This document shows, piece by piece, positions 15,311 through 40,477 of a stretch of DNA of 42,220 bases; the first letter of the stretch is position 1, and every line of letters begins with the position of its first letter. Position numbers and translations under genes: made by a program. The DNA lies in NCBI GenBank assembly GCA_023128895.1, contig JAGMDC010000007.1, positions 1 to 42,220 of the forward strand, in the 5' to 3' direction. The DNA comes from Candidatus Parcubacteria bacterium (GTDB lineage: Bacteria; Patescibacteriota; Minisyncoccia; Minisyncoccales; JAGMDC01). The notes under the pieces are model-generated. The model was not told the origin of the DNA and made no database searches. It saw nothing but the letters and a program-made list of their open reading frames with translations.

Positions 15311-17098
15311 ATGAAATTTCCTTTTTTTAAAAAACCAAAACAAAATATCGTAGAAAAATTGTTTGAAAAAGAAACACTAAGAGCCGCGGACATTATTGCC
15401 CCTGCTTCTATTAAAGTAGAACAAAGCCGATTACAGATAGGAGATGAACGGTTTGCTAAAACATTTTTTATTTTTTCCTACCCGCGTTATCTAAACTCCG
15501 GCTGGCTGTCGCCGATTATAAACTTAGACGTTCCAATGGATGTTTCTTTTTTTATCCACCCTATCGCGAGCGGGATAGTGTTAAAACAATTAAGAAAACG
15601 GCTCACAGAAATTCAGGCAGAACTTTTAACAAGAGAGGAGAAAGGACTTATTCGGGACCCGACTTTGGAAACAGCGTTAAATGATATTGAAAATTTAAGA
15701 GACCAGCTTCAAACAGCCCAGGAAAGAATGTTTAAGTTTGGGCTTTATATCACTGTTTACGCAAACCAGGAAAAAGAACTCGCGGAAACAGAGACAGAAC
15801 TGCGTTCTATTTTAGAATCACGGTTGATTTATATCAAACCCGCGTTATACCAGCAAAAACAAGGATTTACTTCCACCTCCCCTTATGGGCTGGACCAATT
15901 AGGAGTGCACAACACTGTAAACACTGAACCATTGTCCAGTATTTTTCCTTTTATCTCTTTTGATTTGTCTTCCAACGAAGGCATCTTATACGGAATTAAC
16001 AAACACAACAATTCTTTGGTTTTGTTTGATAGATTTACCATGGAAAATTCAAACTTCACAATTTTCGGAAAATCCGGTTCCGGAAAGTCATTTTTGGTGA
16101 AAATTGAGGCGCTTCGGTCGTTAATGCTCGGCACTGATGTAATTATTCTTGACCCTGAAAACGAATATAAAGCGCTGGCAAACAGCGTCGGCGGCGCGTT
16201 TTTCAGCATTTCTTTGTCTTCTCCGCATCATATCAATCCTTTTGACCTTCCAGCGCCCCGGGAAGACGAAAGGCCTGAAGATGTACTACGTTCCAATATT
16301 ATTAATTTAGTAGGATTGTTCAGAATTATGTTCGGTGGATTAACGCCCGAAGAAGACGCGATTATGGACAGAGCGATAACAGAAACATACGCGGCAAAAG
16401 ATATTTCTGCGGACACCGATCCAAAATTATGGAGCAAAAACTTTCCTTTAATGCAGGATTTGGAAGCAGTGCTGGAAACAATGGACGGAGCGGAATCATT
16501 AGTAAGGAGGACAAGAAAATTCACCAAAGGAACTTTTGCAAAATTCTTTAACCAGCCGTCCAACATTTCCGTGAATAAAAGATTCGTAGTGTTTGGAATC
16601 AGGGATATGGAAGATGAATTAAGGCCTATAGCAATGTTTATGGTAATGAGATATATTTGGAACTCCGTCCGAGCGGAAATTAAAAAAAGAATATTAGTGG
16701 TGGATGAGGCATGGTGGATAATGCAGTCGGAAGACGGAGCTTCATTTTTGTTCGGCATCTGCAAGAGAGCCAGAAAATACTGGCTTGGCGTAACAACTAT
16801 TACGCAGGATGTGGCTGACTTTATGAAATCTCCTTATGGAAAACCAATTCTCACTAATTCGTCTCTGCATCTTTTAATGAAACAATCGCCTGCTTCTATT
16901 GATATAGTCCAAAAGACCTTTAATTTGACTGATGAGGAAAAATATATGCTTTTAGAGGCGGCTATTGGAGAAGGATTGTTTTTCGCTGGAATGAAACATG
17001 TGGCAATGAGGGTTGTCGCGTCTTACGCCGAAGAGCAAATCATCACCACAAACCCTGAAGAACTGCAAAAAATCAAATTGGCAAAAGAAACACAATAA
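15311..17098 (+). CDS. virB4: VirB4-like T4SS ATPase
   Basis: Walker A GKSGSGKS, ILDPENEY, INPFD, Walker B VVDEAW, KRARKY, ITQ. Confidence 0.9.
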   Translation: MKFPFFKKPKQNIVEKLFEKETLRAADIIAPASIKVEQSRLQIGDERFAKTFFIFSYPRYLNSGWLSPIINLDVPMDVSFFIHPIASGIVLKQLRKRLTEIQAELLTREEKGLIRDPTLETALNDIENLRDQLQTAQERMFKFGLYITVYANQEKELAETETELRSILESRLIYIKPALYQQKQGFTSTSPYGLDQLGVHNTVNTEPLSSIFPFISFDLSSNEGILYGINKHNNSLVLFDRFTMENSNFTIFGKSGSGKSFLVKIEALRSLMLGTDVIILDPENEYKALANSVGGAFFSISLSSPHHINPFDLPAPREDERPEDVLRSNIINLVGLFRIMFGGLTPEEDAIMDRAITETYAAKDISADTDPKLWSKNFPLMQDLEAVLETMDGAESLVRRTRKFTKGTFAKFFNQPSNISVNKRFVVFGIRDMEDELRPIAMFMVMRYIWNSVRAEIKKRILVVDEAWWIMQSEDGASFLFGICKRARKYWLGVTTITQDVADFMKSPYGKPILTNSSLHLLMKQSPASIDIVQKTFNLTDEEKYMLLEAAIGEGLFFAGMKHVAMRVVASYAEEQIITTNPEELQKIKLAKETQ

Positions 17099-17555: not shown

Positions 17556-18941
17556 ATGATTAACAATCAAAAAATTCTTTTAATACTTATCCTTATAGGA
17601 GTTTTTGGATTGTTCTGCGCTAGCAATTTTGTATTAGCCCAGGAAATCACCGATTATCCAACAATATCGGGCGCTGACACGCCTGGACCAGACACCACTC
17701 TGCCTCAGTATATCAAATATTTATTTAATTTCGGCATAGCGCTGGGAGGAATTTTGGCTTTTGTTGTTTTTGCTTTTGGAGGCGTAATGTGGGTTATGTC
17801 TGCCGGCAACCCGGTAATAATCGGTATTGCAAAAGCAAAAATGCTCAAAGGAATTATGGGTCTGGCTCTCCTGCTCGCCTCATACCTGATTATTGTTGCC
17901 ATAAATCCTGATTTAACTGTTTTAACTTTGGAAGATTTAGATTGGAAAGAATATACCGGTCGTAAATATGTTCCGGCAGACATAGACGCGAAAACTTATA
18001 AAGAAATGCCTATTGGCCTTTTAATTGAAGATATTTTGGCGAAAAATATCAGTTGTTTTGACAAAGACGGCAATTTAATTAACTGCAGAACTCAGGAAAT
18101 TATCCAGCACGCCAAAGAGGATATCTTTGCTCCTGATACACATTATAATTACTGCTATAAATATGATAATCGGGGCAATAAAAAAGAGTTAATGGATTAT
18201 CGCGACCGAATGGACTGCATAAAAAGACTTTTAGTCGCGATTAAAATAAAAAGCAATGAATTAAAACAAATATCTAAAAAATTAGAGATAGCGCTTAAAC
18301 AATGTAAATGCACAAACTGTGACCATGGCTATTGCATAGATGGATTTTGCAATGGTCGATGTAAATGTATTCCTTGTAAAAATCACTGCCATTGCTGCGG
18401 CAGTCCAAGAGAAGAACGGATATCCTGTTCAGGCAATCCTCCTTTCACGCTTTATACAGACCCCTGCCCCAACAGAAAGGAAATAGATGATATAAGAAAT
18501 GAAATTCACCAAATAATAAATGGAACTAAGAAAAAAATTGACGGCGCAAATATAATAGATGATCCATTGCATGACACAAAATTTTTATATCTTAAAGAAG
18601 CTCAAGAAAGGTTAAATGGCTTAAAACAAGAATTAAATAAAGACTTAGACGAGTTAAAAGAAGTAGAAGAACTAACAAAATTTCCTTACGGCAAGCGATT
18701 AAGTTTGGCAGAATATTTTGACAAAAAATTAAAAAGAAACATAAACAAACAAATGTTCAAACACTTCTATATCCCTGAATACGACAGTATTTCAAGATAC
18801 TGTAAGATATTTAACTGCAAAGATTTTGATAGTGATGTTTGTCACGGATACAGACTTAATGACAAAGGCATATTATGCAATTTATTCAATTTTGACGGCG
18901 ATCCAGCCACTTTCTATTATCCTAAAAAAGAATATGAATAG
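17556..18941 (+). CDS. VirB2/TrbC-like pilin fused to a Cys-rich helical extracellular domain
   Basis: Signal peptide (VLA|Q); YIKYLFNF..GG..W..SAGNP....AK......GL.LLL..Y.I...INP; 11 Cys in about 32 aa. Confidence 0.75.
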   Translation: MINNQKILLILILIGVFGLFCASNFVLAQEITDYPTISGADTPGPDTTLPQYIKYLFNFGIALGGILAFVVFAFGGVMWVMSAGNPVIIGIAKAKMLKGIMGLALLLASYLIIVAINPDLTVLTLEDLDWKEYTGRKYVPADIDAKTYKEMPIGLLIEDILAKNISCFDKDGNLINCRTQEIIQHAKEDIFAPDTHYNYCYKYDNRGNKKELMDYRDRMDCIKRLLVAIKIKSNELKQISKKLEIALKQCKCTNCDHGYCIDGFCNGRCKCIPCKNHCHCCGSPREERISCSGNPPFTLYTDPCPNRKEIDDIRNEIHQIINGTKKKIDGANIIDDPLHDTKFLYLKEAQERLNGLKQELNKDLDELKEVEELTKFPYGKRLSLAEYFDKKLKRNINKQMFKHFYIPEYDSISRYCKIFNCKDFDSDVCHGYRLNDKGILCNLFNFDGDPATFYYPKKEYE

Positions 18942-19871: not shown

Positions 19872-21248
19872 ATGAAAACCAATCAAAAAATCATTTTAAT
19901 ATTTATTCTTGTTGGATTTATGGCGCTGGTTTGCGCAGGAGATTTTGCTCTCGCGCAAAGGGATTTGGAAGTTATTGATTATCCCGATGTGCCTGGCGCT
20001 GTTACGCCCGGCAAAGACACTGAATTGCCCCAATATGTTAAGTATTTGTTTAATTTCGCCATTGGCTTAGGCGGAATTTTGGCGTTTGTTATTCTTATTT
20101 TTGGAGGAATTAAATGGATGACATCTGCCGGGGACCCGACAAAAATTAACGAAGCAAAAACAAAAATGCTCGGCGGCATTATTGGTTTAATACTGTTGTT
20201 AGGCGCTTGGTTTATTATTGACGCTATAAACCCAAAATTGCTCTCTCTGAAAAAAATGGATAAATTGGAACCAAACACAGGAATTTATGTTACCGGCGAT
20301 TTTACAGACAACGAAGGCAATGTATATCAAGAAAAAAGATGGTATGTAGGAGATATTCAAAGTTTCACAAATTTTGTTCCAACATCAATGGAATTCATCA
20401 GCGAACCATTGGAATTGCTTTCTGTTTTTGAACATACTCAAGAAGAATTTAAAGGCAGTATAGAAGAAATAGAAAACACGGGCAAAGGCAGCGGCGCCAA
20501 CATTTCAGGAAAATCAATTTCTTTCCAATGGGCAAAATCAGGATTTTACTTGTATGAAGAACCTGATTTTGATGTTTTACAGAAAAAGCCGGAATATCTT
20601 TCCGGGTCCGCGGCTGTTCTTAAGGAATGGGACAATATGACAGAATCCATAAAAATCAAGCATCCTTCAAAACAAATTATTAAAATGGGGGTCGCTTTCA
20701 CGGAACCGAATTTTAACGGAAAGTGTGAATTGGTTCTTGAAGGACTATATGAATTTTTTGATGATAAAATAAGCAATGATCTCATCACAAGGCTGCCAGA
20801 TTTTCCAACTTCTCATCCTGGGGCAGGCAAAGACCTGTCTTCTATGCATATATTTACTCTTGATACTGACAAAGAGCAAAAGGGCGAAGTAATCTTTTAC
20901 GACGAAATCAACTGCCAGGGAAACAGTTTTACAACAACCCTTGAAAGAGAAAGAGGCGCGACAGGAGTAGTAACGGGAAACATTATAGGTTCGGGTAGTT
21001 TTGTAAGTCATAACTTCGGGGCAAATACCGCTGACGAACGCGTTATGTCTTTCAAAATCAACGGGCCTTATGTTGTTGTTATTATGACAAAAGGGCTGGG
21101 CGTAGACAAATCAAACCGAATATGCCAGCGCTTCCTTAAACCAAACGACACAAATTGCTACGGCACTCTTAAAGGAAGCAATGTTTTTGACCCTGACCCA
21201 AACAGCGACTTGAAACCGCGCGGATTCTTTATAGTTGGTTCGAACTAA
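19872..21248 (+). CDS. VirB2-like pilin fused to beta/gamma-crystallin-like domains
   Basis: Same pilin motif; FYLYEEPDF..WDNMTES, FTEPNFNG, FYDEINCQG. Confidence 0.72.
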   Translation: MKTNQKIILIFILVGFMALVCAGDFALAQRDLEVIDYPDVPGAVTPGKDTELPQYVKYLFNFAIGLGGILAFVILIFGGIKWMTSAGDPTKINEAKTKMLGGIIGLILLLGAWFIIDAINPKLLSLKKMDKLEPNTGIYVTGDFTDNEGNVYQEKRWYVGDIQSFTNFVPTSMEFISEPLELLSVFEHTQEEFKGSIEEIENTGKGSGANISGKSISFQWAKSGFYLYEEPDFDVLQKKPEYLSGSAAVLKEWDNMTESIKIKHPSKQIIKMGVAFTEPNFNGKCELVLEGLYEFFDDKISNDLITRLPDFPTSHPGAGKDLSSMHIFTLDTDKEQKGEVIFYDEINCQGNSFTTTLERERGATGVVTGNIIGSGSFVSHNFGANTADERVMSFKINGPYVVVIMTKGLGVDKSNRICQRFLKPNDTNCYGTLKGSNVFDPDPNSDLKPRGFFIVGSN

Positions 21249-21257
21249 ACAACCAAT

Positions 21258-22931
21258 ATGGCTCAAAAAAAACAAAAAATCATTTTAATACTTATCCTTG
21301 TTGGATTTATGGCGCTGGTTTGCGCGGGGGATTTTGCTCTCGCGCAAAGGGATTTGGAAGTTATTGATTATCCTGATGTGCCTGGCGCCGCAGCGCCCGG
21401 CAGAGACACCACCCTGCCCCAATACATTAAATATCTGTTTAATTTCGGCATAGCCCTTGGAGGAATTTTGGTTTTTTTGGTCTTTGTATCCGCTGGAATT
21501 CGCTGGTCAACCTCTGCAGGCGACCCAACAAAAATCGCTCAGGCAAAATCAAGAATGCTGGCTGGAATAATCGGCTTGGCGCTGTTACTCTTCTGCTATC
21601 TTATAATCACTGCGATAAATCCCAATTTAAAAACATTTCAAGATGTGAAAGAAATGCCTCAAAGCGTTGGCATTTATATCACCGGCGATGTAACAGATAA
21701 CGAAGGAAACATATATCAAGAAGAAAGATGTTATCAGGGCAGTATTCCCGGCTTCACAAATTTTACTCCGACATCAATAAAATTTATCAGCAATGAAGAA
21801 GAGCTGCTTGCTATATTTGTTTACAGCCAGGAAGAATATAAAGGGACATCTACAAGGATTGAGAATAAAGGAAAAGGAACGGGGGACAACATTTCAGGAG
21901 AATCAATTGATTTCCTTTGGAACAAGCCCGGCACTTATTTATATGAAAAAACTAATTTTGAAATTCATAACAGGCAGCCAAAATTTTGTACAGGACTTTA
22001 CCAAGACCTAAGCAAAGATAACTGGGATAATAAAACGCAATCCTTGAAATTCAACAATATACCCGGAGCAGGCTTAAATTTCGGCGCTGTCTTATTCTCT
22101 GAAAATGATTTTGAGGGCAGCAAATGCGGATACGCGTTTGAAAAAGATGTTGCAGACCTGTCTCTTGGCAGCAATAATTATCTCTGGCCCATAGAAAAAG
22201 ACAACCTCTCTTCAATGATTGTGTTGAATACTTCAAAAACAGGCGGAACTGTAACTTTTTACGATTCAATCAACTGCCAGGGCAGAGAAAAAACATACAC
22301 GACTTCAGATGTTCTGGCAATAAACGACCTTACCAAGGACAATTGTTCGTTTGGGGATTGTCTCTTTGGTAGATTAAACGCGGATGATATAGAAAAAGAA
22401 TTGCATAGAAACATTATGTCTATGCGAATAGAAGGAGATATGTACGCGCTTCTTAAGTCGCAAGAGGGAGAAGAATATGTTCCTCCGCCTTGGGATGAAG
22501 AAAAAATTGAGTTTCCTCCCGGTATCCCAGTCAGCGAATGCACTACACGAGTGTTAGCAGCGCTTGCGAATGGAACTGAATTTGACATTGTCCGCCCAAC
22601 AAAAAAGGATTTAAGGTCAAGATTTCCCGAAACCAGAGGGGGTTGGCACGGCGAAACTCCGACTAATTTTAGTTGCGATGAAGTTTGCGCAAATCGAGGC
22701 CAGGATTGCCTAGGCATAGGATTATATAATGTAGAAAAGACTTTTTGCAGATATATAATACATAATATAGGATCGAATTGCCAGCTGTCAGCAAATTTAG
22801 AATGGGGAGAATGCGGAATGGGCTTTAGGTATGGATCCGGCTTCTGCGAAGAATCCTCTCCTGTCTGGGCATCATGGGGATATGCCGATACTGGCTGTTA
22901 TTGTGTGAATAAAGGAATCCTTGAAAAATAA
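21258..22931 (+). CDS. VirB2-like pilin with crystallin-like domains and a distinct Cys-rich C-terminal domain
   Basis: Paralog of 19872-21248 up to about residue 400 (YLYEKTNF, WDNKTQS, LFSENDFEG, DNLSS), then an unrelated SCDEVC...C domain. Confidence 0.72.
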   Translation: MAQKKQKIILILILVGFMALVCAGDFALAQRDLEVIDYPDVPGAAAPGRDTTLPQYIKYLFNFGIALGGILVFLVFVSAGIRWSTSAGDPTKIAQAKSRMLAGIIGLALLLFCYLIITAINPNLKTFQDVKEMPQSVGIYITGDVTDNEGNIYQEERCYQGSIPGFTNFTPTSIKFISNEEELLAIFVYSQEEYKGTSTRIENKGKGTGDNISGESIDFLWNKPGTYLYEKTNFEIHNRQPKFCTGLYQDLSKDNWDNKTQSLKFNNIPGAGLNFGAVLFSENDFEGSKCGYAFEKDVADLSLGSNNYLWPIEKDNLSSMIVLNTSKTGGTVTFYDSINCQGREKTYTTSDVLAINDLTKDNCSFGDCLFGRLNADDIEKELHRNIMSMRIEGDMYALLKSQEGEEYVPPPWDEEKIEFPPGIPVSECTTRVLAALANGTEFDIVRPTKKDLRSRFPETRGGWHGETPTNFSCDEVCANRGQDCLGIGLYNVEKTFCRYIIHNIGSNCQLSANLEWGECGMGFRYGSGFCEESSPVWASWGYADTGCYCVNKGILEK

Positions 22932-22950
22932 ATATTACTTTTGTAAAATT

Positions 22951-24672
22951 ATGAATATATTTGAAAAACTTCATTATAAACTCCAATATATTGATAAAAG
23001 GATTTTAATTATTTTGGCTATTGCAGCTGTTGTTTTACTAATAGCAATAATTTGTATTGTTTTTTTGGGAAACAAAGAAAAGCCGCTAACGCCACAGGAA
23101 AAGCAAGAGCAAGAACAAGAGCAAGAACAAGGAGAAACTGAAGAAGATGTGTATCATTACACGCCTTTGACTAAAACAGATTGTGAAAATACAACGAATA
23201 AACAAGAAAAACAAAAGTGTTTTGATAGATTAGAACACATAAATATTCTTATGCGAAACAATTATATAAAATGTTTGGATATTACTACATTGGAAGTTAG
23301 AGACGATTGTTTGTTAAATTTTGCTTATTCTATTCTTCTAAACGATAATTTATGTTTTGCTATTTCAGACCCCCAAAAAAGACATTTGTGCGTAGACAGA
23401 ATAATTATAACAAACAGAGACAAAAACGCTTGTAAAAAGCATTTTGGGGACGAACCATTTGAGTGTCAGGAATGTATGGACAGGATTTCAGCGTTTAATA
23501 TAGGGGAAGACAAAAATCCAGAAAAAATATATGAATGTCAAAAAATTAAAAGTTTGGAATATCCGAGATTATGCCTTTGGATGTCTTTTAAGAATACATT
23601 TAAGGATAATTGCGAATTAGTGCCTTTGGAGTTCAGGCCTTATTGTATTGCTTACTATACTATTCATAGCGCAAGCACAAAAGAGCATTGTTCAGCAATA
23701 GCATTAGAGCAATACAAAGATTTTTGTTTGGCTAAGGTTGAAGCAGGGGGATGGAGAGGAGTTGCATCTCTTGATTCAGACAATGACGGTATTACAGACT
23801 GGAACGATTTATTTATGGGATTAGATCCTAAAAATCCTGATACAGACGGAGACGGATTATCAGACGGGGATGAGATGTCTGAATATCATACAAATCCTAC
23901 AGAAAAAGACACTGATAATGACGGCTTGACTGATTATCAAGAAATAAAGATTTATCATACCAATCCTCAAAAGCCGGACACTGATGGAGATGGAATACTG
24001 GACGGAAAAGAGATCAGAAGCGGAAGCAATGCTTTAAGCGGAGATAGAGATAAAGACGGACTTTTAGACGAGATTGAAAAGAAAATTGGTACAAATATCA
24101 ATAAAAAGGACACTGATGGAGATGGAATGACTGACGGCGATGAATGGAAACGAGGGTTAAATCCTTTAAAACCAGGCGCTGTTTTATCTGATACTGATAA
24201 AGACGGGTTAAAGGATTTGGATGAGATTTTTTACGGAACAGACAGATTAAATCCTGATACAGACGGAGATGGAATTTTAGACGGGGAAGAGATAAAAAGA
24301 TTGACTAATCCATTAGGAAAGGGATATATGGATTTTGACAATGACGGAATAACTGATAAACAAGAAATAGAGCGCGGAACAAATCCTGTTTTGCCGGACG
24401 CCGGAGACAGCCATAGCAATATCGCGCCAACCAATGCTTCCGCCGCTATTCCAGATTCTGAGTATTCTTCTGATTGGCTTGCCAGTATTTTAAATCCTTT
24501 TCTCTCTTTAACCGCAAGCCAGGATCCAGACACAGACACAGGATGCCAGCTATTCAAAAAACCTAAAAGAAAAGACGGTTGTATCAACACCTTAAAAGGG
24601 AGCGCTGTATACAGCCCTGATTTTTCTGGAAAAAAAGTTGAGTCCTTAATGCTCATTCCAGCGAAATACTAA
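22951..24672 (+). CDS. Surface protein with Cx10-11C repeats and thrombospondin type 3-like Ca-binding repeats
   Basis: N-terminal TM, about 7 Cys-pair repeats, 9 DxDxDGxxDxx(E/D) repeats (about 23773-24366); ATG 22951 preferred over TTG 22921. Confidence 0.8.
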   Translation: MNIFEKLHYKLQYIDKRILIILAIAAVVLLIAIICIVFLGNKEKPLTPQEKQEQEQEQEQGETEEDVYHYTPLTKTDCENTTNKQEKQKCFDRLEHINILMRNNYIKCLDITTLEVRDDCLLNFAYSILLNDNLCFAISDPQKRHLCVDRIIITNRDKNACKKHFGDEPFECQECMDRISAFNIGEDKNPEKIYECQKIKSLEYPRLCLWMSFKNTFKDNCELVPLEFRPYCIAYYTIHSASTKEHCSAIALEQYKDFCLAKVEAGGWRGVASLDSDNDGITDWNDLFMGLDPKNPDTDGDGLSDGDEMSEYHTNPTEKDTDNDGLTDYQEIKIYHTNPQKPDTDGDGILDGKEIRSGSNALSGDRDKDGLLDEIEKKIGTNINKKDTDGDGMTDGDEWKRGLNPLKPGAVLSDTDKDGLKDLDEIFYGTDRLNPDTDGDGILDGEEIKRLTNPLGKGYMDFDNDGITDKQEIERGTNPVLPDAGDSHSNIAPTNASAAIPDSEYSSDWLASILNPFLSLTASQDPDTDTGCQLFKKPKRKDGCINTLKGSAVYSPDFSGKKVESLMLIPAKY

Positions 24673-24699
24673 AAAACCGCGCTTAAGCGCGGTTTTTTA
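24670..24699. terminator. Bidirectional terminator overlapping both convergent stop codons
   Basis: Perfect 30-bp palindrome TAAAAAACCGCGCTTAAGCGCGGTTTTTTA. Confidence 0.8.
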
Positions 24700-25159
24700 T
24701 AACAATTCTTCTATTTTCCCGCTCGCCTATGCTTTCTGTCTCAACATCTCCCCTTGCTTGCAATTCCAAATGCACAATTCTTCTTTCATAAGCGGTCATT
24801 GGAGGAAGAATTTTTTCTTTTTTAGACAAAGACACCTCGTCCGCTATTGACCGCGCCAAATCCTTCAAATACTCGTTCTTTTTCTTTTTATAATCCTGAA
24901 TATCCAAATCAATATAAAATATATCTTCTTTTTTCTCACAGCGAATATTTTTTCTCAAAATAGCGGTTAATAAATGCTGAATTTCCGTTAAAGTGCGGCC
25001 GCCTTCTCCTATTAAAATCTGAGGCTCGTCTATTTTCAAATCAATGGGAATGGTTGAGTCAATCACATCATTAAACAAAATTTCCGGGTCAAAATCGGTT
25101 TTTTTAAAAAACTCTTTTGTTATTTTTTTAATTTTTTCTAAATTCTCTTTTGAAATCAT
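24683..25159 (-). CDS. jag: Jag/KhpB (EloR) RNA-binding protein, KH + R3H
   Basis: LIGEGGRTL..IQ, LPPM.AYERRIVH, ESIGE. Confidence 0.9.
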   Translation of the reverse strand: MISKENLEKIKKITKEFFKKTDFDPEILFNDVIDSTIPIDLKIDEPQILIGEGGRTLTEIQHLLTAILRKNIRCEKKEDIFYIDLDIQDYKKKKNEYLKDLARSIADEVSLSKKEKILPPMTAYERRIVHLELQARGDVETESIGERENRRIVIKNRA

Positions 25160-37754: not shown

Positions 37755-38875
37755 ATTCCCTTAATGGGCATTACTACATAAAGGTAATTTTCATCTCCTT
37801 TTGGCTTTAATATTGCGGGGCCTTCTTCGCTGCTCAATTTTATAACCACTTCAGAACTGCTAAGATGCGCGAGCCCGTCTAATAAATACTTCCAATTAAA
37901 GGAAATTATCATATCTTTCCCTTTTATTTTTGATTTAAGAATAGATTGATTTTCCCCTAATTCCGTGTTTTGTGAAAAAATTTCCATTTCTTGTTCTTTT
38001 TCTTTTACTTTTATTTTCACTTCATTTGTATTTCCTGAAAATAAAGAGGCAGTTTTAATTTGATTTAAAAATTCATCTCTTGAAACAATAATTTCTGTTT
38101 TATATTCTTTCGGAATAATTTCCTGATAATTTGGATATTGCCCTTCTATTAAACGGGAAATAATTTGAATTCTTGGTTTTGAAATTTCTAAAAACGGTTC
38201 TTCAAATAAAACCTGATTAGAAGAAAAATATACTTTCATTTTTGTGTTTTTCTGGGAAAAAATATTCACAACAGTATGCGCTGTTTTTTGAGGAAGTATA
38301 AAAGAATTATTTTTTTGTATCTCTTTTTCAAAATAAAGAATTTTTTCAGCCAAACGGAAACTGTCCGTGCTTGCTAAATTTACTTTATTTTTTTGGAAAT
38401 TAAAATATATTCCTGAAAATTCCGGTTTAGTTTGATTAAGTGTTGTAAAATCAACTACTTGGGATATTCCCTGCGAAAAAGGAGAACTATTTATTTCAAT
38501 AAAATTTTCTGTTTCTATTTTTGGGATAATAGGAAAATCTTCTACTGAATCCCCTTTTATTTGAGTTTTGTAATTTTTACACTCAATATACAGCGCTTTA
38601 TTTTTAACCTCTAATTGGATTTTTTCATCCGGGAGTGAACTAATAAAACTGTATAAAAATTTTGCCGGAACAGTTATTCCTCCTTGTTTTTCAACTTTAC
38701 ATAAAGCCCAATAATTTATTCCTATTTCCAAATCAGTTCCTGATAATTTTAATAAATTTTCCTCTGTGGAAATTAAAATATTATTTAATATAGGTAAAGT
38801 TAAATTTCTTCCTATTATTTTTTCTATAATCTCCAAACCTTTTTTTAAATTTTCTTTTAGAATTATTATTTTCAT
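37751..38875 (-). CDS. dnaN: DNA polymerase III beta clamp
   Basis: LPIL.NIL, TDLE, STDSFRL, RLIEG.YPNY, YVVMP; downstream of dnaA. Confidence 0.96.
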   Translation of the reverse strand: MKIIILKENLKKGLEIIEKIIGRNLTLPILNNILISTEENLLKLSGTDLEIGINYWALCKVEKQGGITVPAKFLYSFISSLPDEKIQLEVKNKALYIECKNYKTQIKGDSVEDFPIIPKIETENFIEINSSPFSQGISQVVDFTTLNQTKPEFSGIYFNFQKNKVNLASTDSFRLAEKILYFEKEIQKNNSFILPQKTAHTVVNIFSQKNTKMKVYFSSNQVLFEEPFLEISKPRIQIISRLIEGQYPNYQEIIPKEYKTEIIVSRDEFLNQIKTASLFSGNTNEVKIKVKEKEQEMEIFSQNTELGENQSILKSKIKGKDMIISFNWKYLLDGLAHLSSSEVVIKLSSEEGPAILKPKGDENYLYVVMPIKGI

Positions 38876-39121
38876 TTTTTATATTTTTCCCCTCACTCTT
38901 AATTATAATAAATTAATATATTATATTTATTATAATTATTATGAAAGTATTATTTTATATTTTTATTCTTATTTAAGATTGAATGAATTGTGGATAAATA
39001 TGTGAAGAGAATATTTAATAATTTGTTAATAATTTTATTATTTTATAGTTATATATTTTTATAGTTATTTTATCTATATTGTTATCCTCTTTTAATCCCC
39101 ATTTTATTCCCATATTTTTCC
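38876..39121. other. Probable replication origin oriC
   Basis: Very AT-rich dnaA-dnaN intergenic region; perfect DnaA box 38989-97, degenerate boxes at 39024-32 and about 39104-12; AT tract towards dnaN. Confidence 0.75.
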
Positions 39122-40477
39122 TTACGACTGGTAGTATAATCTTTGTTTTATTATATTAATTTCTTCATTTAATGTCTCATTTTCTTGTATTTCTTTTGAG
39201 ATTTTTGAGCAAGCGTATATTGTTGTTGTATGGTCTTTGCCTTGGAATTTTCTGCCAATAAAAGGAAATGAACATTTTAATAAATCCCTTAGAAGATACA
39301 TTGCTATTTGCCTTGGTTTTACAATTTCTTTTTTTCTAGTTGAAAGAAAAAGGTCTTTTTCTTTCAAATCATAAAAATTTGCCACAATAGTTATTATTTT
39401 TTTAGGATTAATTGGTTTTTGCGGCGCTAAAATTATATTTTTCAAGATTTTTTTAATTACATTAAGGTCAATATCTTGATTGCTTATTTTTTTATGAATA
39501 GCAATTTTATTTATCGCGCCTTCTAATTCACGGATATTTTTTTGAATATTTTCGGCAACATATTCCAATACTTCGTCAGATAAATCAATTTTTCTTTCTT
39601 TTGTTTTTACTTTTAATATAGCGATTCTTGTTTCAATATCGGGAATTCCCACATCAACAATCATTCCGCCTTCAAATCTTGACCTTAACCGTTCTTCCAT
39701 AGAGGGAATTGCTTTTGGCAATCTGTCTGAAGAAATAATCATTTGCTTGTTGTTTTGGTATAAAGTGTTGAAAATATGGAAAAATTCTTCCTGGGTTTTC
39801 TCTTTTCCAGCCAGAAATTGTATGTCATCAATTATTAAAACATCAGTTTTTTTGAAATCATTTTTGAAATTTTCAATATTATGCTCTCTTATAGAATTTA
39901 CCACTCCGGAAATGAATTTTTCAGAAGAAATATATTTTATTCTTTTTTTAGGGAATTTTTTATTAACTTCATTCCCTATTGCCTGAATAAGATGCGTCTT
40001 ACCCAAGCCAACGCCGCCGTACACAAACAAAGGATTATAGACCAATCCAGGTTTTTTACAAATAGCCTGCGCCGCGGCGTGCGGAAGTTCGTTAAAAGAT
40101 CCGACCACAAAATTTTCAAAAATATAGCGCGGATTTAAGTTGGTTTCTTTATTTATCTTGAATTCCTGGAAGTCTAATTGGTTTTCGTTAAATACGTTTT
40201 GCTGGGGAATCTCTTTTTTGGTTTCAAGGACTGTCTTCGCGATGTCATATTTGATTTCCTTAATTTCTTGGTCTAAATCGCGCAGAATTTTTAAAATAGA
40301 TTTATTGTATTTATTTTCCAACCATTCTTTGGAAAAATTATTTGGTACAGAAACAATAACTTTCTCTCCTGTTTTATCTAAAATTTTAGTGTTCTTAAAC
40401 CAGGTGGCGAAATTTGCAGGAGACATATTAAATTGGACCTGGGCAAGCACTGCCTGCCATAATTCTTCCTTAGTCAT
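39122..40477 (-). CDS. dnaA: Chromosomal replication initiator DnaA
   Basis: FATWF, YNPLFVYGGVGLGKTHL, IIDDIQF, QEEFFH, RLRSRF, KDHTT; start MTKEELW preferred (40486 and 40513 possible). Confidence 0.97.
   Translation of the reverse strand: MTKEELWQAVLAQVQFNMSPANFATWFKNTKILDKTGEKVIVSVPNNFSKEWLENKYNKSILKILRDLDQEIKEIKYDIAKTVLETKKEIPQQNVFNENQLDFQEFKINKETNLNPRYIFENFVVGSFNELPHAAAQAICKKPGLVYNPLFVYGGVGLGKTHLIQAIGNEVNKKFPKKRIKYISSEKFISGVVNSIREHNIENFKNDFKKTDVLIIDDIQFLAGKEKTQEEFFHIFNTLYQNNKQMIISSDRLPKAIPSMEERLRSRFEGGMIVDVGIPDIETRIAILKVKTKERKIDLSDEVLEYVAENIQKNIRELEGAINKIAIHKKISNQDIDLNVIKKILKNIILAPQKPINPKKIITIVANFYDLKEKDLFLSTRKKEIVKPRQIAMYLLRDLLKCSFPFIGRKFQGKDHTTTIYACSKISKEIQENETLNEEINIIKQRLYYQS

What the first reader, a model, noticed from the sequence alone, without database searches (positions are those of the whole stretch)
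22464..24672. Split gene: the missing C-terminus of the pilin-crystallin gene reappears 2 kb later as the tail of the next gene
Seen: gene 21258 tracks paralog 19872 until ...IMSMRIEGDMYALLKSQ (22463) and then diverges. The paralog's remaining tail (ICQRFLKPNDTNCYGTLKGSNVFDPD) matches the end of the otherwise unrelated TSP3-repeat gene (SQ|DPDTDTGCQLFKKPKRKDGCINTLKGSAVYSPD, from 24523). Joining 22463 to 24523 rebuilds an in-frame full paralog, and SQ precedes both junctions. Inference: a ~2059-bp insert gave the pilin a new C-domain and added a second gene that captured the old tail in frame. The two proteins might dock by completing one domain in trans (split-domain complementation), or the insert is an exchangeable cassette.
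Basis: partly seen in the sequence, partly recalled or inferred. Interest (0 to 1): 0.85.

Follow-up and report, generated by a model that had tools for sequence, protein, structure and literature searches.

The report
Pilin gene split by inserted cassette
In an uncultured, tiny-genome bacterium, a two-gene module landed inside a surface-pilin gene, giving the pilin a new end domain and leaving the last three strands of its old domain, still intact, fused to the end of the newly arrived neighbour gene.

Summary
A profile of the C-terminal domain, built only from 17 pilins of other genomes, hits paralog A over positions 2-118, gene B over 4-77 and the end of the TSP3 gene C over 73-119. C scores E 5e-9 against all 11,985 open frames of the genome; the next hit has E 1.3. 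The domain models as a beta-gamma-crystallin fold. B keeps five strands and C carries the last three.

In 3 of 3 syntenic relatives the last pilin gene is uninterrupted and abuts the Jag gene, where C's tail now lies. The inserted DNA is collinear with a gene pair found elsewhere: a pilin-like protein ending in a Cys-rich domain, followed by a membrane-anchored TSP3 protein. Contigs from four other studies bridge both junctions, so this is not a misassembly.

The same left junction occurs in two diverged metagenome proteins, 59% identical to B. The split is therefore old, yet the tail still scores like a normal family tail. However, the five closest relatives of C stop just before the extension. 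Docking of the two halves in trans remains untested; the complex prediction gave no verdict.

The parts
15311..17098 (+). VirB4/TrbE-like ATPase that heads the type IV secretion-like cluster holding the pilin array
   Evidence: Pfam P-loop_TraG 99.9 bits and CagE_TrbE_VirB 22.9 bits. 74% identical orthologues in G007 and G003.
17556..18941 (+). Pilin paralog D: the same N-terminal pilin part, a different Cys-rich C-terminal part
   Evidence: 54-57% identical to the first ~150 residues of A and B. No Pfam hit at E <= 0.1.
19872..21248 (+). Gene A: intact pilin-crystallin paralog, the reference for the unsplit state
   Evidence: Pfam T4SS_pilin 44.9 bits. Domain profile positions 2-118, 100.5 bits. 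AF2 model of A326-458 has pLDDT 85.4, and the listed Foldseek hits are nearly all beta-gamma-crystallins.
21258..22475 (+). Gene B, ancestral part (B1-406): pilin N-terminus, middle region, and the first five strands of the last crystallin-like domain
   Evidence: T4SS_pilin 32.8 bits. 48% identical to A. Profile positions 4-77 = B325-406. None of 40 related genomes matched B beyond residue 404.
22476..22931 (+). Gene B, acquired part (B407-557 plus stop): linker and a Cys-rich end domain (...CDEVC..G..C.G.GL...TGCYC)
   Evidence: Homologues in 4 of 300 other genomes of the order and in 0 of 7 of the own family. 24 representative proteins at E <= 1e-3, the match lying at or near the C-terminus in the full-length ones. 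P0004 matches it at 63% and P0003 at 50%.
22951..24405 (+). Gene C, donor-derived part: N-terminal membrane anchor, Cys-containing helical region, seven TSP3 calcium-binding repeats
   Evidence: TSP3_bac 137.7 bits, 7 stretches. 60% identical and collinear with the 499-aa protein of L025/G208. 74-82% identical to P0026-P0030, which end here.
24406..24522 (+). Filler (C496-534) of unknown origin that links the TSP3 part to the tail; open only in C's frame
   Evidence: No homologue found. The other two frames carry stops.
24523..24672 (+). Captured tail (C535-583 plus stop): last three strands of the ancestral crystallin-like domain of gene B
   Evidence: Profile positions 73-119, E 5.2e-9 genome-wide. 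55.6% identical over 45 aa to the tail of the last pilin of G001 (E 1.6e-9). Leave-one-out tail score 58.3 bits, within the family range of 16.2-77.9. Bridged by contigs X8 record 22 and X12 record 7.
24670..24699 (.). Perfect 15+15 nt palindrome with A/T runs that overlaps C's stop codon, between the convergent genes C and Jag; terminator-like
   Evidence: Inverted repeat I4, 100% complementary, visible. The consensus terminator scan did not list it.
24683..25159 (-). Jag-like R3H/KH protein gene: the conserved neighbour that marks the ancestral 3' end of the last pilin gene
   Evidence: Pfam R3H 63.6 bits. Orthologues directly abut the last pilin gene in G001, G003 and G007.

Best explanation
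The locus is a VirB2-like pilin array beside a VirB4-type ATPase, in a 741-kb genome of the Saccharibacteria type.

Ancestral state: gene B was an ordinary member of a pilin family whose last domain is a beta-gamma-crystallin fold.

The event: a segment of about 1.9-2.06 kb recombined into the loop between the fifth and sixth strands of that domain. The segment comes from a gene pair that is conserved elsewhere. It holds the 3' third of a pilin-like gene, encoding a Cys-rich end domain, its stop codon, a 19-nt spacer, and the following membrane-anchored TSP3-repeat gene.

Result:
- B is a chimera: old pilin body, five-strand half-domain, new Cys-rich end.
- The TSP3 gene reads on through 39 filler codons into the last 49 codons of old B.
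- The three missing strands, with both conserved cysteines, therefore now form the C-terminus of protein C.

Shown: the split, its position, the donor-type origin, its reality in several assemblies, and its age (the same left junction in diverged relatives).

Inferred:
- The tail has been kept by selection rather than being a neutral relic (my odds about 55-60%).
- The leading functional model is that it completes B's orphan half-domain in trans outside the cell, tying the TSP3 protein to the pilin (my odds about 25-30%).
For: Complementary halves:
- A profile from 17 non-G000 homologues hits A at 2-118, B at 4-77 and C at 73-119. C has E 5.2e-9 against 11,985 frames.

Fold:
- AF2 of A326-458 has pLDDT 85.4 and pTM 0.81.
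- The top Foldseek PDB hits are spherulin 3a, nitrollin, clostrillin and gamma-crystallins.
- The break lies after strand 75-80 of the model. The tail holds strands 93-97, 104-105 and 126-131.

Synteny:
- In G001, G003 and G007 the last pilin-crystallin gene is whole (438-472 aa) and faces Jag/YidC directly, with no TSP3 gene.
- C's tail is most like the tail of that positional orthologue in G001 (55.6% over 45 aa).

Donor type:
- B469-550 matches the C-termini of proteins in G208, G243, G185 and G063.
- In 4 of 6 such loci a TM-plus-TSP3 gene follows within -4 to +23 nt. The window has a 19-nt gap.
- C75-501 is 60% identical and collinear with the G208/L025 protein.

Not an artefact:
- Contigs from four other studies bridge the left junction (X5 22120-22603, X8 21344-22614, X9 21874-23699).
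- They also bridge the right junction (X8 23796-24682, X12 24490-24749).

Age:
- P0004 (266 aa, 59% identical to B) and P0003 span the same left junction.
- By my hand count, the half-domain is about 61% identical between B and P0004.

No decay:
- The tail scores 58.3 bits against 16.2-77.9 for 18 family tails.
- Its identity to family tails lies on or above the body-tail trend (mean residual +0.048, sd 0.084).
- The frame is open through filler and tail only in C's frame.

Topology:
- B has a signal/pilin N-terminus and C an N-terminal membrane anchor. This allows both to be extracytoplasmic; the topology itself is inference.
Against: - The five closest relatives of C (P0026-P0030, 74-82% identical) all end at ...NPV(V/L)P plus 2-3 residues, which corresponds to C residue ~495. 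They have no filler and no tail.
- C is not their outgroup by pairwise identity. The extension may therefore be a late read-through peculiar to this lineage, or the extension is dispensable.
- I could not see the DNA around those genes. I do not know whether they sit beside chimeric B-like genes or belong to the donor lineage.
- No short open frame bearing the tail was found in the protein collection.
- The origin of the 39 filler codons is unknown.
- Only two tail polymorphisms were displayed, one synonymous and one Asn-to-Ser, so there is no dN/dS.
- The AF2 model of B321-557 is mediocre (pLDDT 69.7). It shows only that the linker is low-confidence, not how the half-domain is satisfied.
- The age argument assumes that P0004 and P0003 descend from the same event. 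It also assumes that their divergence from B reflects time rather than accelerated pilin evolution.
Confidence: 0.8

Rival explanations
1. Neutral relic. The insertion is real, but the tail has no function. The TSP3 gene simply lost its stop codon (or the crossover fell inside its reading frame), and translation runs into a leftover that has not yet decayed.
For: - Five of five nearest relatives of C end just before the extension, and C is nested among them by identity.
- An in-frame capture has a prior of one in three.
- No orphan-tail frames were found elsewhere.
Against: - The same left junction exists in proteins only 59% identical to B, so the split is old.
- Even so, the tail scores as a typical family tail and keeps both cysteines and the TLKG..VY.P motif.
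- Thirty-nine filler codons stay open in an AT-rich genome while both other frames are closed. By my rough hand estimate that is a few percent by chance.
Confidence: 0.35
2. The half-domain of B needs no partner. It is stabilised in cis by the new linker and Cys-rich domain, or by the upstream domain. The tail on C then serves something else or nothing.
For: - The half-domain and the new linker motif (PPG.P..EC..R...LA.G..FDIVR) are both conserved among B, P0004 and P0003.
- The relatives of C lack the tail.
Against: - The AF2 model of B321-557 gives the linker (B408-423) pLDDT under 50, with no confident packing.
- A beta-gamma-crystallin domain that lacks three of its eight strands is not expected to be stable. 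That is established knowledge of the fold, not tested here.
Confidence: 0.2
3. The tail did not come from B. A third pilin-crystallin paralog once lay downstream of C, and a deletion fused C to its last 49 codons.
For: - Pilin arrays of 2-11 genes are common in these bacteria (PMC12102498, passages read).
- The closest relatives of C have their own stop codon.
Against: - B breaks at profile position 77 and the tail begins at position 73. Two independent events hitting the same loop of a ~450-residue protein would be a coincidence.
- Syntenic relatives have the same gene count as A plus B, with the last gene abutting Jag.
Confidence: 0.07
4. The tail is a portable C-terminal module, a sorting or assembly signal that occurs on many unrelated surface proteins. 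Its presence on C would then need no split gene.
For: Every family pilin ends with it, even members that carry a cargo domain, such as the 975-aa Peptidase_C1 pilin of G222.
Against: - Among 49 non-G000 places in 33 genomes that match the tail profile, the open frames were mostly 345-530 aa.
- Of 10 such frames tested, 9 hit T4SS_pilin at E <= 1e-3 and 0 hit TSP3.
- The two larger frames inspected (G222) are also pilins.
- In the model the tail is three integral strands of a domain, not a linear tag.
Confidence: 0.08
5. Chance similarity or assembly chimera.
For: The raw pairwise match is short: 14 of 26 identical.
Against: Profile E 5.2e-9 genome-wide. Both junctions are bridged by contigs from four other studies.
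Confidence: 0.01

Closest known systems
   Same: Tandem, highly divergent T4SS_pilin genes beside a VirB4 ATPase in a Saccharimonadia-type genome. The paper reports arrays of 2-11 genes with mean identity 25%. It also reports that the T4SS cluster is essential for epibiotic growth in Ca. Southlakia epibionticum.
   Different: In the passages I read, the paper does not describe crystallin-like or Cys-rich end domains, TSP3 partner genes, or a pilin gene split by an insertion. 'Crystallin' occurs 0 times in it (listing).
Microbial beta-gamma-crystallin domains (spherulin 3a 1hdf, nitrollin 3ent, clostrillin 3i9h, archaeal 3hz2)
   Same: The model of A's last domain superposes on them (TM normalised to target 0.54-0.75). 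It has two Greek-key halves and a conserved Tyr, Cys and Ser.
   Different: Sequence identity is 7-19%. The only Pfam crystallin hit seen, Crystall_3 on B, is below threshold (E 0.019, 15.5 bits against 27.3); A has none. The domain sits at the end of a membrane pilin and has a conserved Cys pair in its second half.
Donor-strand complementation or exchange in pili (chaperone-usher pili, recalled; Pam pili of CPR bacteria, PMC13278184, abstract read)
   Same: If the trans model is right, a pilus-associated subunit with an incomplete beta fold is completed by strands from another polypeptide.
   Different: In those systems one strand of an Ig-like fold is exchanged between like subunits as the normal assembly mechanism. 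Here three strands of a crystallin fold would be supplied by an unrelated TSP3 protein, as the accidental outcome of a gene insertion. Nothing is shown experimentally or by prediction.
Gene fission and fusion by insertion; cargo domains inserted in the same pilin family (G222 Peptidase_C1 pilin)
   Same: Foreign modules enter the pilin open reading frame towards its 3' end, while the N-terminal pilin part is kept.
   Different: In G222 the cargo is in frame and the terminal crystallin domain stays whole in one protein. In the window the module carried a stop codon and a second gene, so one domain is now divided between two proteins.

Membership tests
T4SS_pilin / VirB2-like pilin array | Pfam PF18895 match above the gathering score in tandem genes | tested here: met
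   A 44.9 bits and B 32.8 bits against a cut-off of 26.6. D has no Pfam hit but is 54-57% identical to the N-termini of A and B.
T4SS_pilin / VirB2-like pilin array | Location beside a VirB4-type ATPase | tested here: met
   15311-17098: P-loop_TraG 99.9 bits, CagE_TrbE_VirB 22.9 bits.
Beta-gamma-crystallin superfamily (last domain of A; split between B and C) | Two-Greek-key beta-sandwich fold | tested here: met
   AF2 pLDDT 85.4. The listed Foldseek hits are nearly all beta-gamma-crystallins; best E 8.4e-4, TM to target up to 0.75.
Beta-gamma-crystallin superfamily (last domain of A; split between B and C) | Sequence-profile membership (Pfam Crystall families) | tested here: not met
   Only a sub-threshold Crystall_3 hit on B (15.5 bits against 27.3). 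None on A's domain even at E <= 10.
Bacterial TSP3-repeat proteins (gene C) | Repeated PF18884 calcium-binding motifs | tested here: met
   137.7 bits, 7 stretches.
Gene split by insertion | The two pieces cover complementary, non-overlapping parts of one family profile | tested here: met
   B at positions 4-77, C at positions 73-119 of a 120-position profile.
Gene split by insertion | Uninterrupted orthologues at the same chromosomal position in relatives | tested here: met
   G001, G003 and G007: whole pilin gene abutting Jag/YidC.
Gene split by insertion | Junctions supported by independent sequence data | tested here: met
   Contigs of runs X5, X8, X9 and X12 from four other studies.
Transposable element or integrative cassette | Terminal inverted repeats, target-site duplication, or a transposase/integrase gene | tested here: not met
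   No repeat pair at the junctions. The insert encodes only the Cys-rich domain end and the TSP3 protein.
Split-domain (donor-strand-like) complementation in trans | Physical association of the B half-domain with the C tail | tested here: inconclusive
   One complex prediction gave no verdict (see Tried and rejected).
Split-domain (donor-strand-like) complementation in trans | Both halves conserved under purifying selection after the split | tested here: inconclusive
   The half-domain is about 61% identical between B and P0004 (hand count). The tail is undecayed. But no second lineage with the tail was found, and the relatives of C lack it.

The most novel reading that the evidence does not exclude
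A beta-gamma-crystallin domain was cut in two by a gene-pair insertion and now works as a natural split domain. The five-strand half at the pilin's junction and the three-strand tail on the TSP3 protein reassemble outside the cell. This would tether the calcium-binding TSP3 protein to the VirB2-like pilin of an epibiotic Saccharibacteria-type cell, a donor-strand-like coupling that arose by accident and was then kept by selection.
Probability: 0.25. Interest if true: 0.8.

Novelty: new variant of a known kind. Interest (0 to 1): 0.5.

Why it matters
VirB2-like pilin arrays are among the few gene sets reported as essential for the epibiotic life of Saccharibacteria (PMC12102498, passages read). 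What their variable outer domains do, and how they diversify, is unknown.

This locus shows one concrete route. A whole 'end domain plus partner gene' module moved from one pilin scaffold onto another, inside a folded domain.

It also leaves an unusually clean natural experiment: one small beta-sandwich domain divided between two secreted or membrane proteins, with both halves apparently conserved.

If the halves reassemble, two things follow:
- It would be a new way for a surface filament to recruit an accessory protein.
- It would be a ready-made natural split-domain pair.

If they do not, the locus still dates and documents modular evolution of these pilins.

Tried and rejected
Complex prediction. 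Input was B321-410 with its alignment (A4) and C521-583 with its alignment (A2). Result: no verdict. ipSAE was 0.24, 0.44 and 0.18 against a mark of 0.32, and the controls were not run. I count this neither for nor against binding. A pass would in any case have been weak, because halves of one domain tend to be put together by likeness to solved folds.

RNA evidence. No RNA holder was listed, so nothing can be said about expression.

Protein-collection searches.
- Filler plus tail, near lengths: only the protein itself, as a cluster of 5 members on 4 contigs.
- Filler plus tail, shorter lengths: 2 candidates, none scored. The database-wide E-values of these searches are too strict to show tails of ordinary family pilins, so the blank is weak.

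Contig scans for relatives.
- Metagenome scan with C440-583: 4 loci, all donor-type or TSP3-only, and none with the tail. L025 encodes the same proteins as G208.
- Genome-contig scan with the B/P0004/P0003 alignment: none found.
- Genome-contig scan with the C-relatives alignment: only the G208 contig.
- The genomes of P0003, P0004 and P0026-P0030 therefore could not be reached.

Annotation of the Cys-rich end domain.
- Pfam: none, even at E <= 10.
- PDB sequences: none at E <= 1.
- Protein atlas: scores of 0.90 or less to eukaryotic clusters, with recognition below the informative level. Treated as no lead.
- Foldseek on the B321-557 model: 0 hits at E <= 0.001.

Duplicated strand. I considered that C's ...NPFLSLTASQ duplicates B's ...GDMYALLKSQ strand. 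The profile alignment of C starts only at residue 535, and the DNA differs. Rejected as unsupported.

Tree of the C relatives. It could not be built. I used pairwise identities from four alignments instead, which give no rooted order.

Terminator scan. It did not list the palindrome at the end of C that searches show.

Papers. Supplementary files of PMC12102498 (Table S3, Fig. S9 on pilin arrays) could not be opened and might list this array type. I ran two literature searches. I make no claim that the split is absent from print beyond those.

Full report
What is there.

The window is contig C9 of a 741-kb, 11-contig genome. A genome of the same order carries a record title naming Candidatus Saccharibacteria. 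Downstream of a VirB4/TrbE-like ATPase gene (15311-17098) lies a run of genes on the + strand:
- D: 17556-18941.
- A 345-aa gene.
- A: 19872-21248, 458 aa.
- B: 21258-22931, 557 aa.
- C: 22921 or, more likely, 22951-24672; 583 or 573 aa.
- Then the convergent Jag-like R3H/KH gene (24683-25159) and yidC.

A and B carry the Pfam T4SS_pilin domain above threshold. C has an N-terminal membrane anchor, a Cys-containing helical region and seven TSP3 repeats. This matches the 'VirB2-like pilin arrays' described for Patescibacteria (PMC12102498, passages read).

B follows A at 48% identity up to B402 and then diverges. The tail of A and the end of C match weakly in pairwise comparison (E 7e-5). Within the genome each is the other's best non-self hit (14 of 26 identical, E 0.002).

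To get a fair test I collected the C-terminal domain from other genomes of the order. I built a 120-position profile from 17 of them, with no sequence of this genome:
- A matches positions 2-118 (100.5 bits).
- B matches 4-77 (B325-406, 38.2 bits).
- C matches 73-119 (C535-581, 35.9 bits).

Against all 11,985 stop-to-stop frames of at least 30 aa in the genome, C's tail has E 5.2e-9 and the next unrelated frame has E 1.3. B and C therefore hold complementary halves of one domain, and the break falls in a variable loop.

The domain.

An AlphaFold2 model of A326-458, made with an 18-sequence alignment, is confident (pLDDT 85.4, pTM 0.81). Its best PDB matches are beta-gamma-crystallins: spherulin 3a, nitrollin, clostrillin, an archaeal crystallin and lens gamma-crystallins. 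The best E is 8.4e-4 and TM to target reaches 0.75. Sequence-profile membership is not met; there is only a sub-threshold Crystall_3 hit on B.

In the model, strands lie at 11-18, 27-34, 46-51, 68-72 and 75-80, and then at 93-97, 104-105 and 126-131. B keeps the first five. The tail on C is the last three, and includes the two cysteines conserved in most family members.

It is an insertion.

In G001, G003 and G007 (same family) the cluster is syntenic: VirB4, a small gene, pilins, then Jag and YidC. The last pilin-crystallin gene is whole (438-472 aa) and directly faces Jag, and there is no TSP3 gene. C's tail is most similar to the tail of that positional orthologue in G001 (55.6% over 45 aa, E 1.6e-9). 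None of 40 related genomes matched B beyond residue 404. None of the 7 family genomes has B's new end domain.

What was inserted.

B469-550 matches the C-termini of proteins in 4 of 300 other genomes of the order: G208, G243, G185 and G063. These fall in three genera.

Of six such loci:
- In four, the next gene, -4 to +23 nt away, is a membrane-anchored Cys-helical TSP3 protein collinear with C.
- In a fifth, a TSP3 gene lies upstream.
- In the sixth, the upstream side was not covered.

The window has a 19-nt gap between B's stop and C's ATG. C75-501 is 60% identical to the 499-aa protein of G208/L025. One donor-type upstream protein, that of L019, shares a weak pilin-like N-terminus with B (BLASTP E 1e-4). 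A sub-threshold TrbC hit occurs in 1 of 7 such proteins.

A search of 1.84 billion representatives found 24 proteins with this end domain at E <= 1e-3. In the full-length ones it lies at or near the C-terminus, on scaffolds of 305-1023 aa. The segment is therefore 'the end of a pilin-like gene plus its TSP3 partner'.

No terminal repeats, target duplication or recombinase gene were found. I take it as illegitimate or microhomology-guided recombination between pilin loci after transfer. That is inference.

There is no second copy of the pair in the genome.

Junctions.

Left: family homology runs to ...KSQEGE (about 22475). Homology to P0004/P0003-type sequences covers B409-555, so the junction is sharp.

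Right: homology to TSP3 proteins ends at about C495 (24405). The 39 codons at 24406-24522 have no detectable relative. The tail starts at 24523.

Not a misassembly.

Contigs of four runs from four other studies (cold-seep and marine-sediment metagenomes), differing from the window by up to a few percent, bridge both junctions:
- Left junction: X5 22120-22603, X8 21344-22614, X9 21874-23699.
- Right junction: X8 23796-24682, X12 24490-24749.

Age, and the state of the tail.

Two metagenome proteins contain the same left junction: the crystallin half ending ...MKIEGQFYVLLGSK.G, followed by the linker and the Cys-rich domain. P0004 is a 266-aa fragment, 59% identical to B. P0003 is 165 aa. By my hand count the half-domain itself is about 61% identical between B and P0004, as conserved as the rest. 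The chimera is therefore old and its half-domain is under constraint.

The tail has not decayed:
- With leave-one-out tail profiles, 18 family tails score 16.2-77.9 bits and C's tail scores 58.3.
- Across 153 family pairs, tail identity tracks body identity (r 0.68). The B-body/C-tail combination lies slightly above that trend (mean residual +0.048, sd 0.084).

The frame is open through filler and tail only in C's frame; the others have 4 and 6 stops over 24380-24672. Taken together this favours selection on the tail, if P0004 and P0003 descend from the same event.

Evidence the other way.

The five nearest relatives of C (P0026-P0030, 469-484 aa, 74-82% identical) all stop 2-3 residues after ...GTNPV(V/L)P. 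That is where C continues into filler and tail. By pairwise identity C is not their outgroup: C-P0026 is 82% and C-P0030 is 78%, while P0030 is 70-77% to the rest.

Three readings are possible:
- C's extension is a later read-through.
- Stops were gained more than once.
- These proteins belong to the donor lineage and never had a tail behind them.

I could not reach their DNA.

Only two tail polymorphisms were displayed among strains: GGT>GGC, synonymous, and AAC>AGC, Asn to Ser, a residue other family members have at that position.

Structure tests of the consequences.

The model of B321-557 is mediocre (pLDDT 69.7). The linker B408-423 is below 50, so there is no confident sign that the new sequence completes the half-domain in cis. 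Its fold search found nothing significant.

Context in the family.

A tail-only profile matched 49 places in 33 other genomes of 400 searched.
- Ten of these frames were tested. Nine hit T4SS_pilin at E <= 1e-3 (five above the cut-off) and none has TSP3 repeats.
- Larger frames in genus g72 are pilins with cargo. In G222 a 975-aa member carries a Peptidase_C1 domain (64 bits) in frame before an intact terminal crystallin domain.

Module insertion near the 3' end is therefore a habit of this family. The window is the case in which the module brought its own stop codon and a second gene, and cut the terminal domain.

Verdict.

The split-gene observation and the insertion inference are confirmed and sharpened: donor type, junctions, age and independent support.

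Whether the captured tail works is open. My odds:
- Kept by selection: about 55-60%.
- Completes B's half-domain in trans: about 25-30%.
- Plain relic: about 35%.

It is a new variant within a known kind, modular evolution of Patescibacterial VirB2-like pilin arrays. Interest is moderate, and high if trans-completion is shown.

Noticed in passing
window 19872-20050 and 21258-21440: The first ~60 residues of A and B (signal peptide and start of the pilin part) are about 87% identical by my hand count. The proteins are 48% identical overall. This suggests gene conversion or strong constraint at the 5' ends of the array genes.
   Followed up: no
window 21249-22060: Strain-level hypervariability in B's N-terminal half. 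An X5 contig differs at 35 positions plus 2 indels in 812 nt, against 4 in 484 nt in the next contig and about 1% in C.
   Followed up: no
L059 782-3706 (-), genome G222: A 975-aa member of the same pilin family carries a papain-type Peptidase_C1 domain (64 bits) inserted in frame before an intact terminal crystallin-like domain. A neighbouring 829-aa member has other repeated Cys modules.
   Followed up: partly
L018 1498-3222 (-) versus L021 1489-3093 (-): In G208 the pilin-like part (310 aa) and the Cys-rich part (261 aa) are two adjacent genes. In G063 they form one 534-aa protein. By eye, this is another fission or fusion in the donor-type family.
   Followed up: no
L022 2784-3119 (-), genome G243: At a second locus the TSP3-repeat gene lies upstream, not downstream, of the gene with the Cys-rich end domain. 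The downstream gene is an unrelated 330-aa membrane protein.
   Followed up: no
window 24670-24699: A perfect 15+15 nt palindrome (A-run, GC stem, T-run) overlaps C's stop codon between the convergent genes. The consensus terminator scan missed it.
   Followed up: partly
window 38001-40000: Markedly low G+C (0.24-0.27 against about 0.37 for the window) over two ORFs on the minus strand.
   Followed up: no
window 23070-23110: C has a short Glu/Gln-rich low-complexity run (QEKQEQEQEQEQGETEE) just after its membrane anchor. Its closest relatives have different, shorter linkers there.
   Followed up: no
alignments A3 and A10: MAFFT repeatedly aligned the donor-type motif [ST]F[DE]IVR with the family strand motif SF[EK]I.G. 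B has both, about 45 residues apart. This is probably chance, but it is a possible patch of similarity between the two pilin classes.
   Followed up: no
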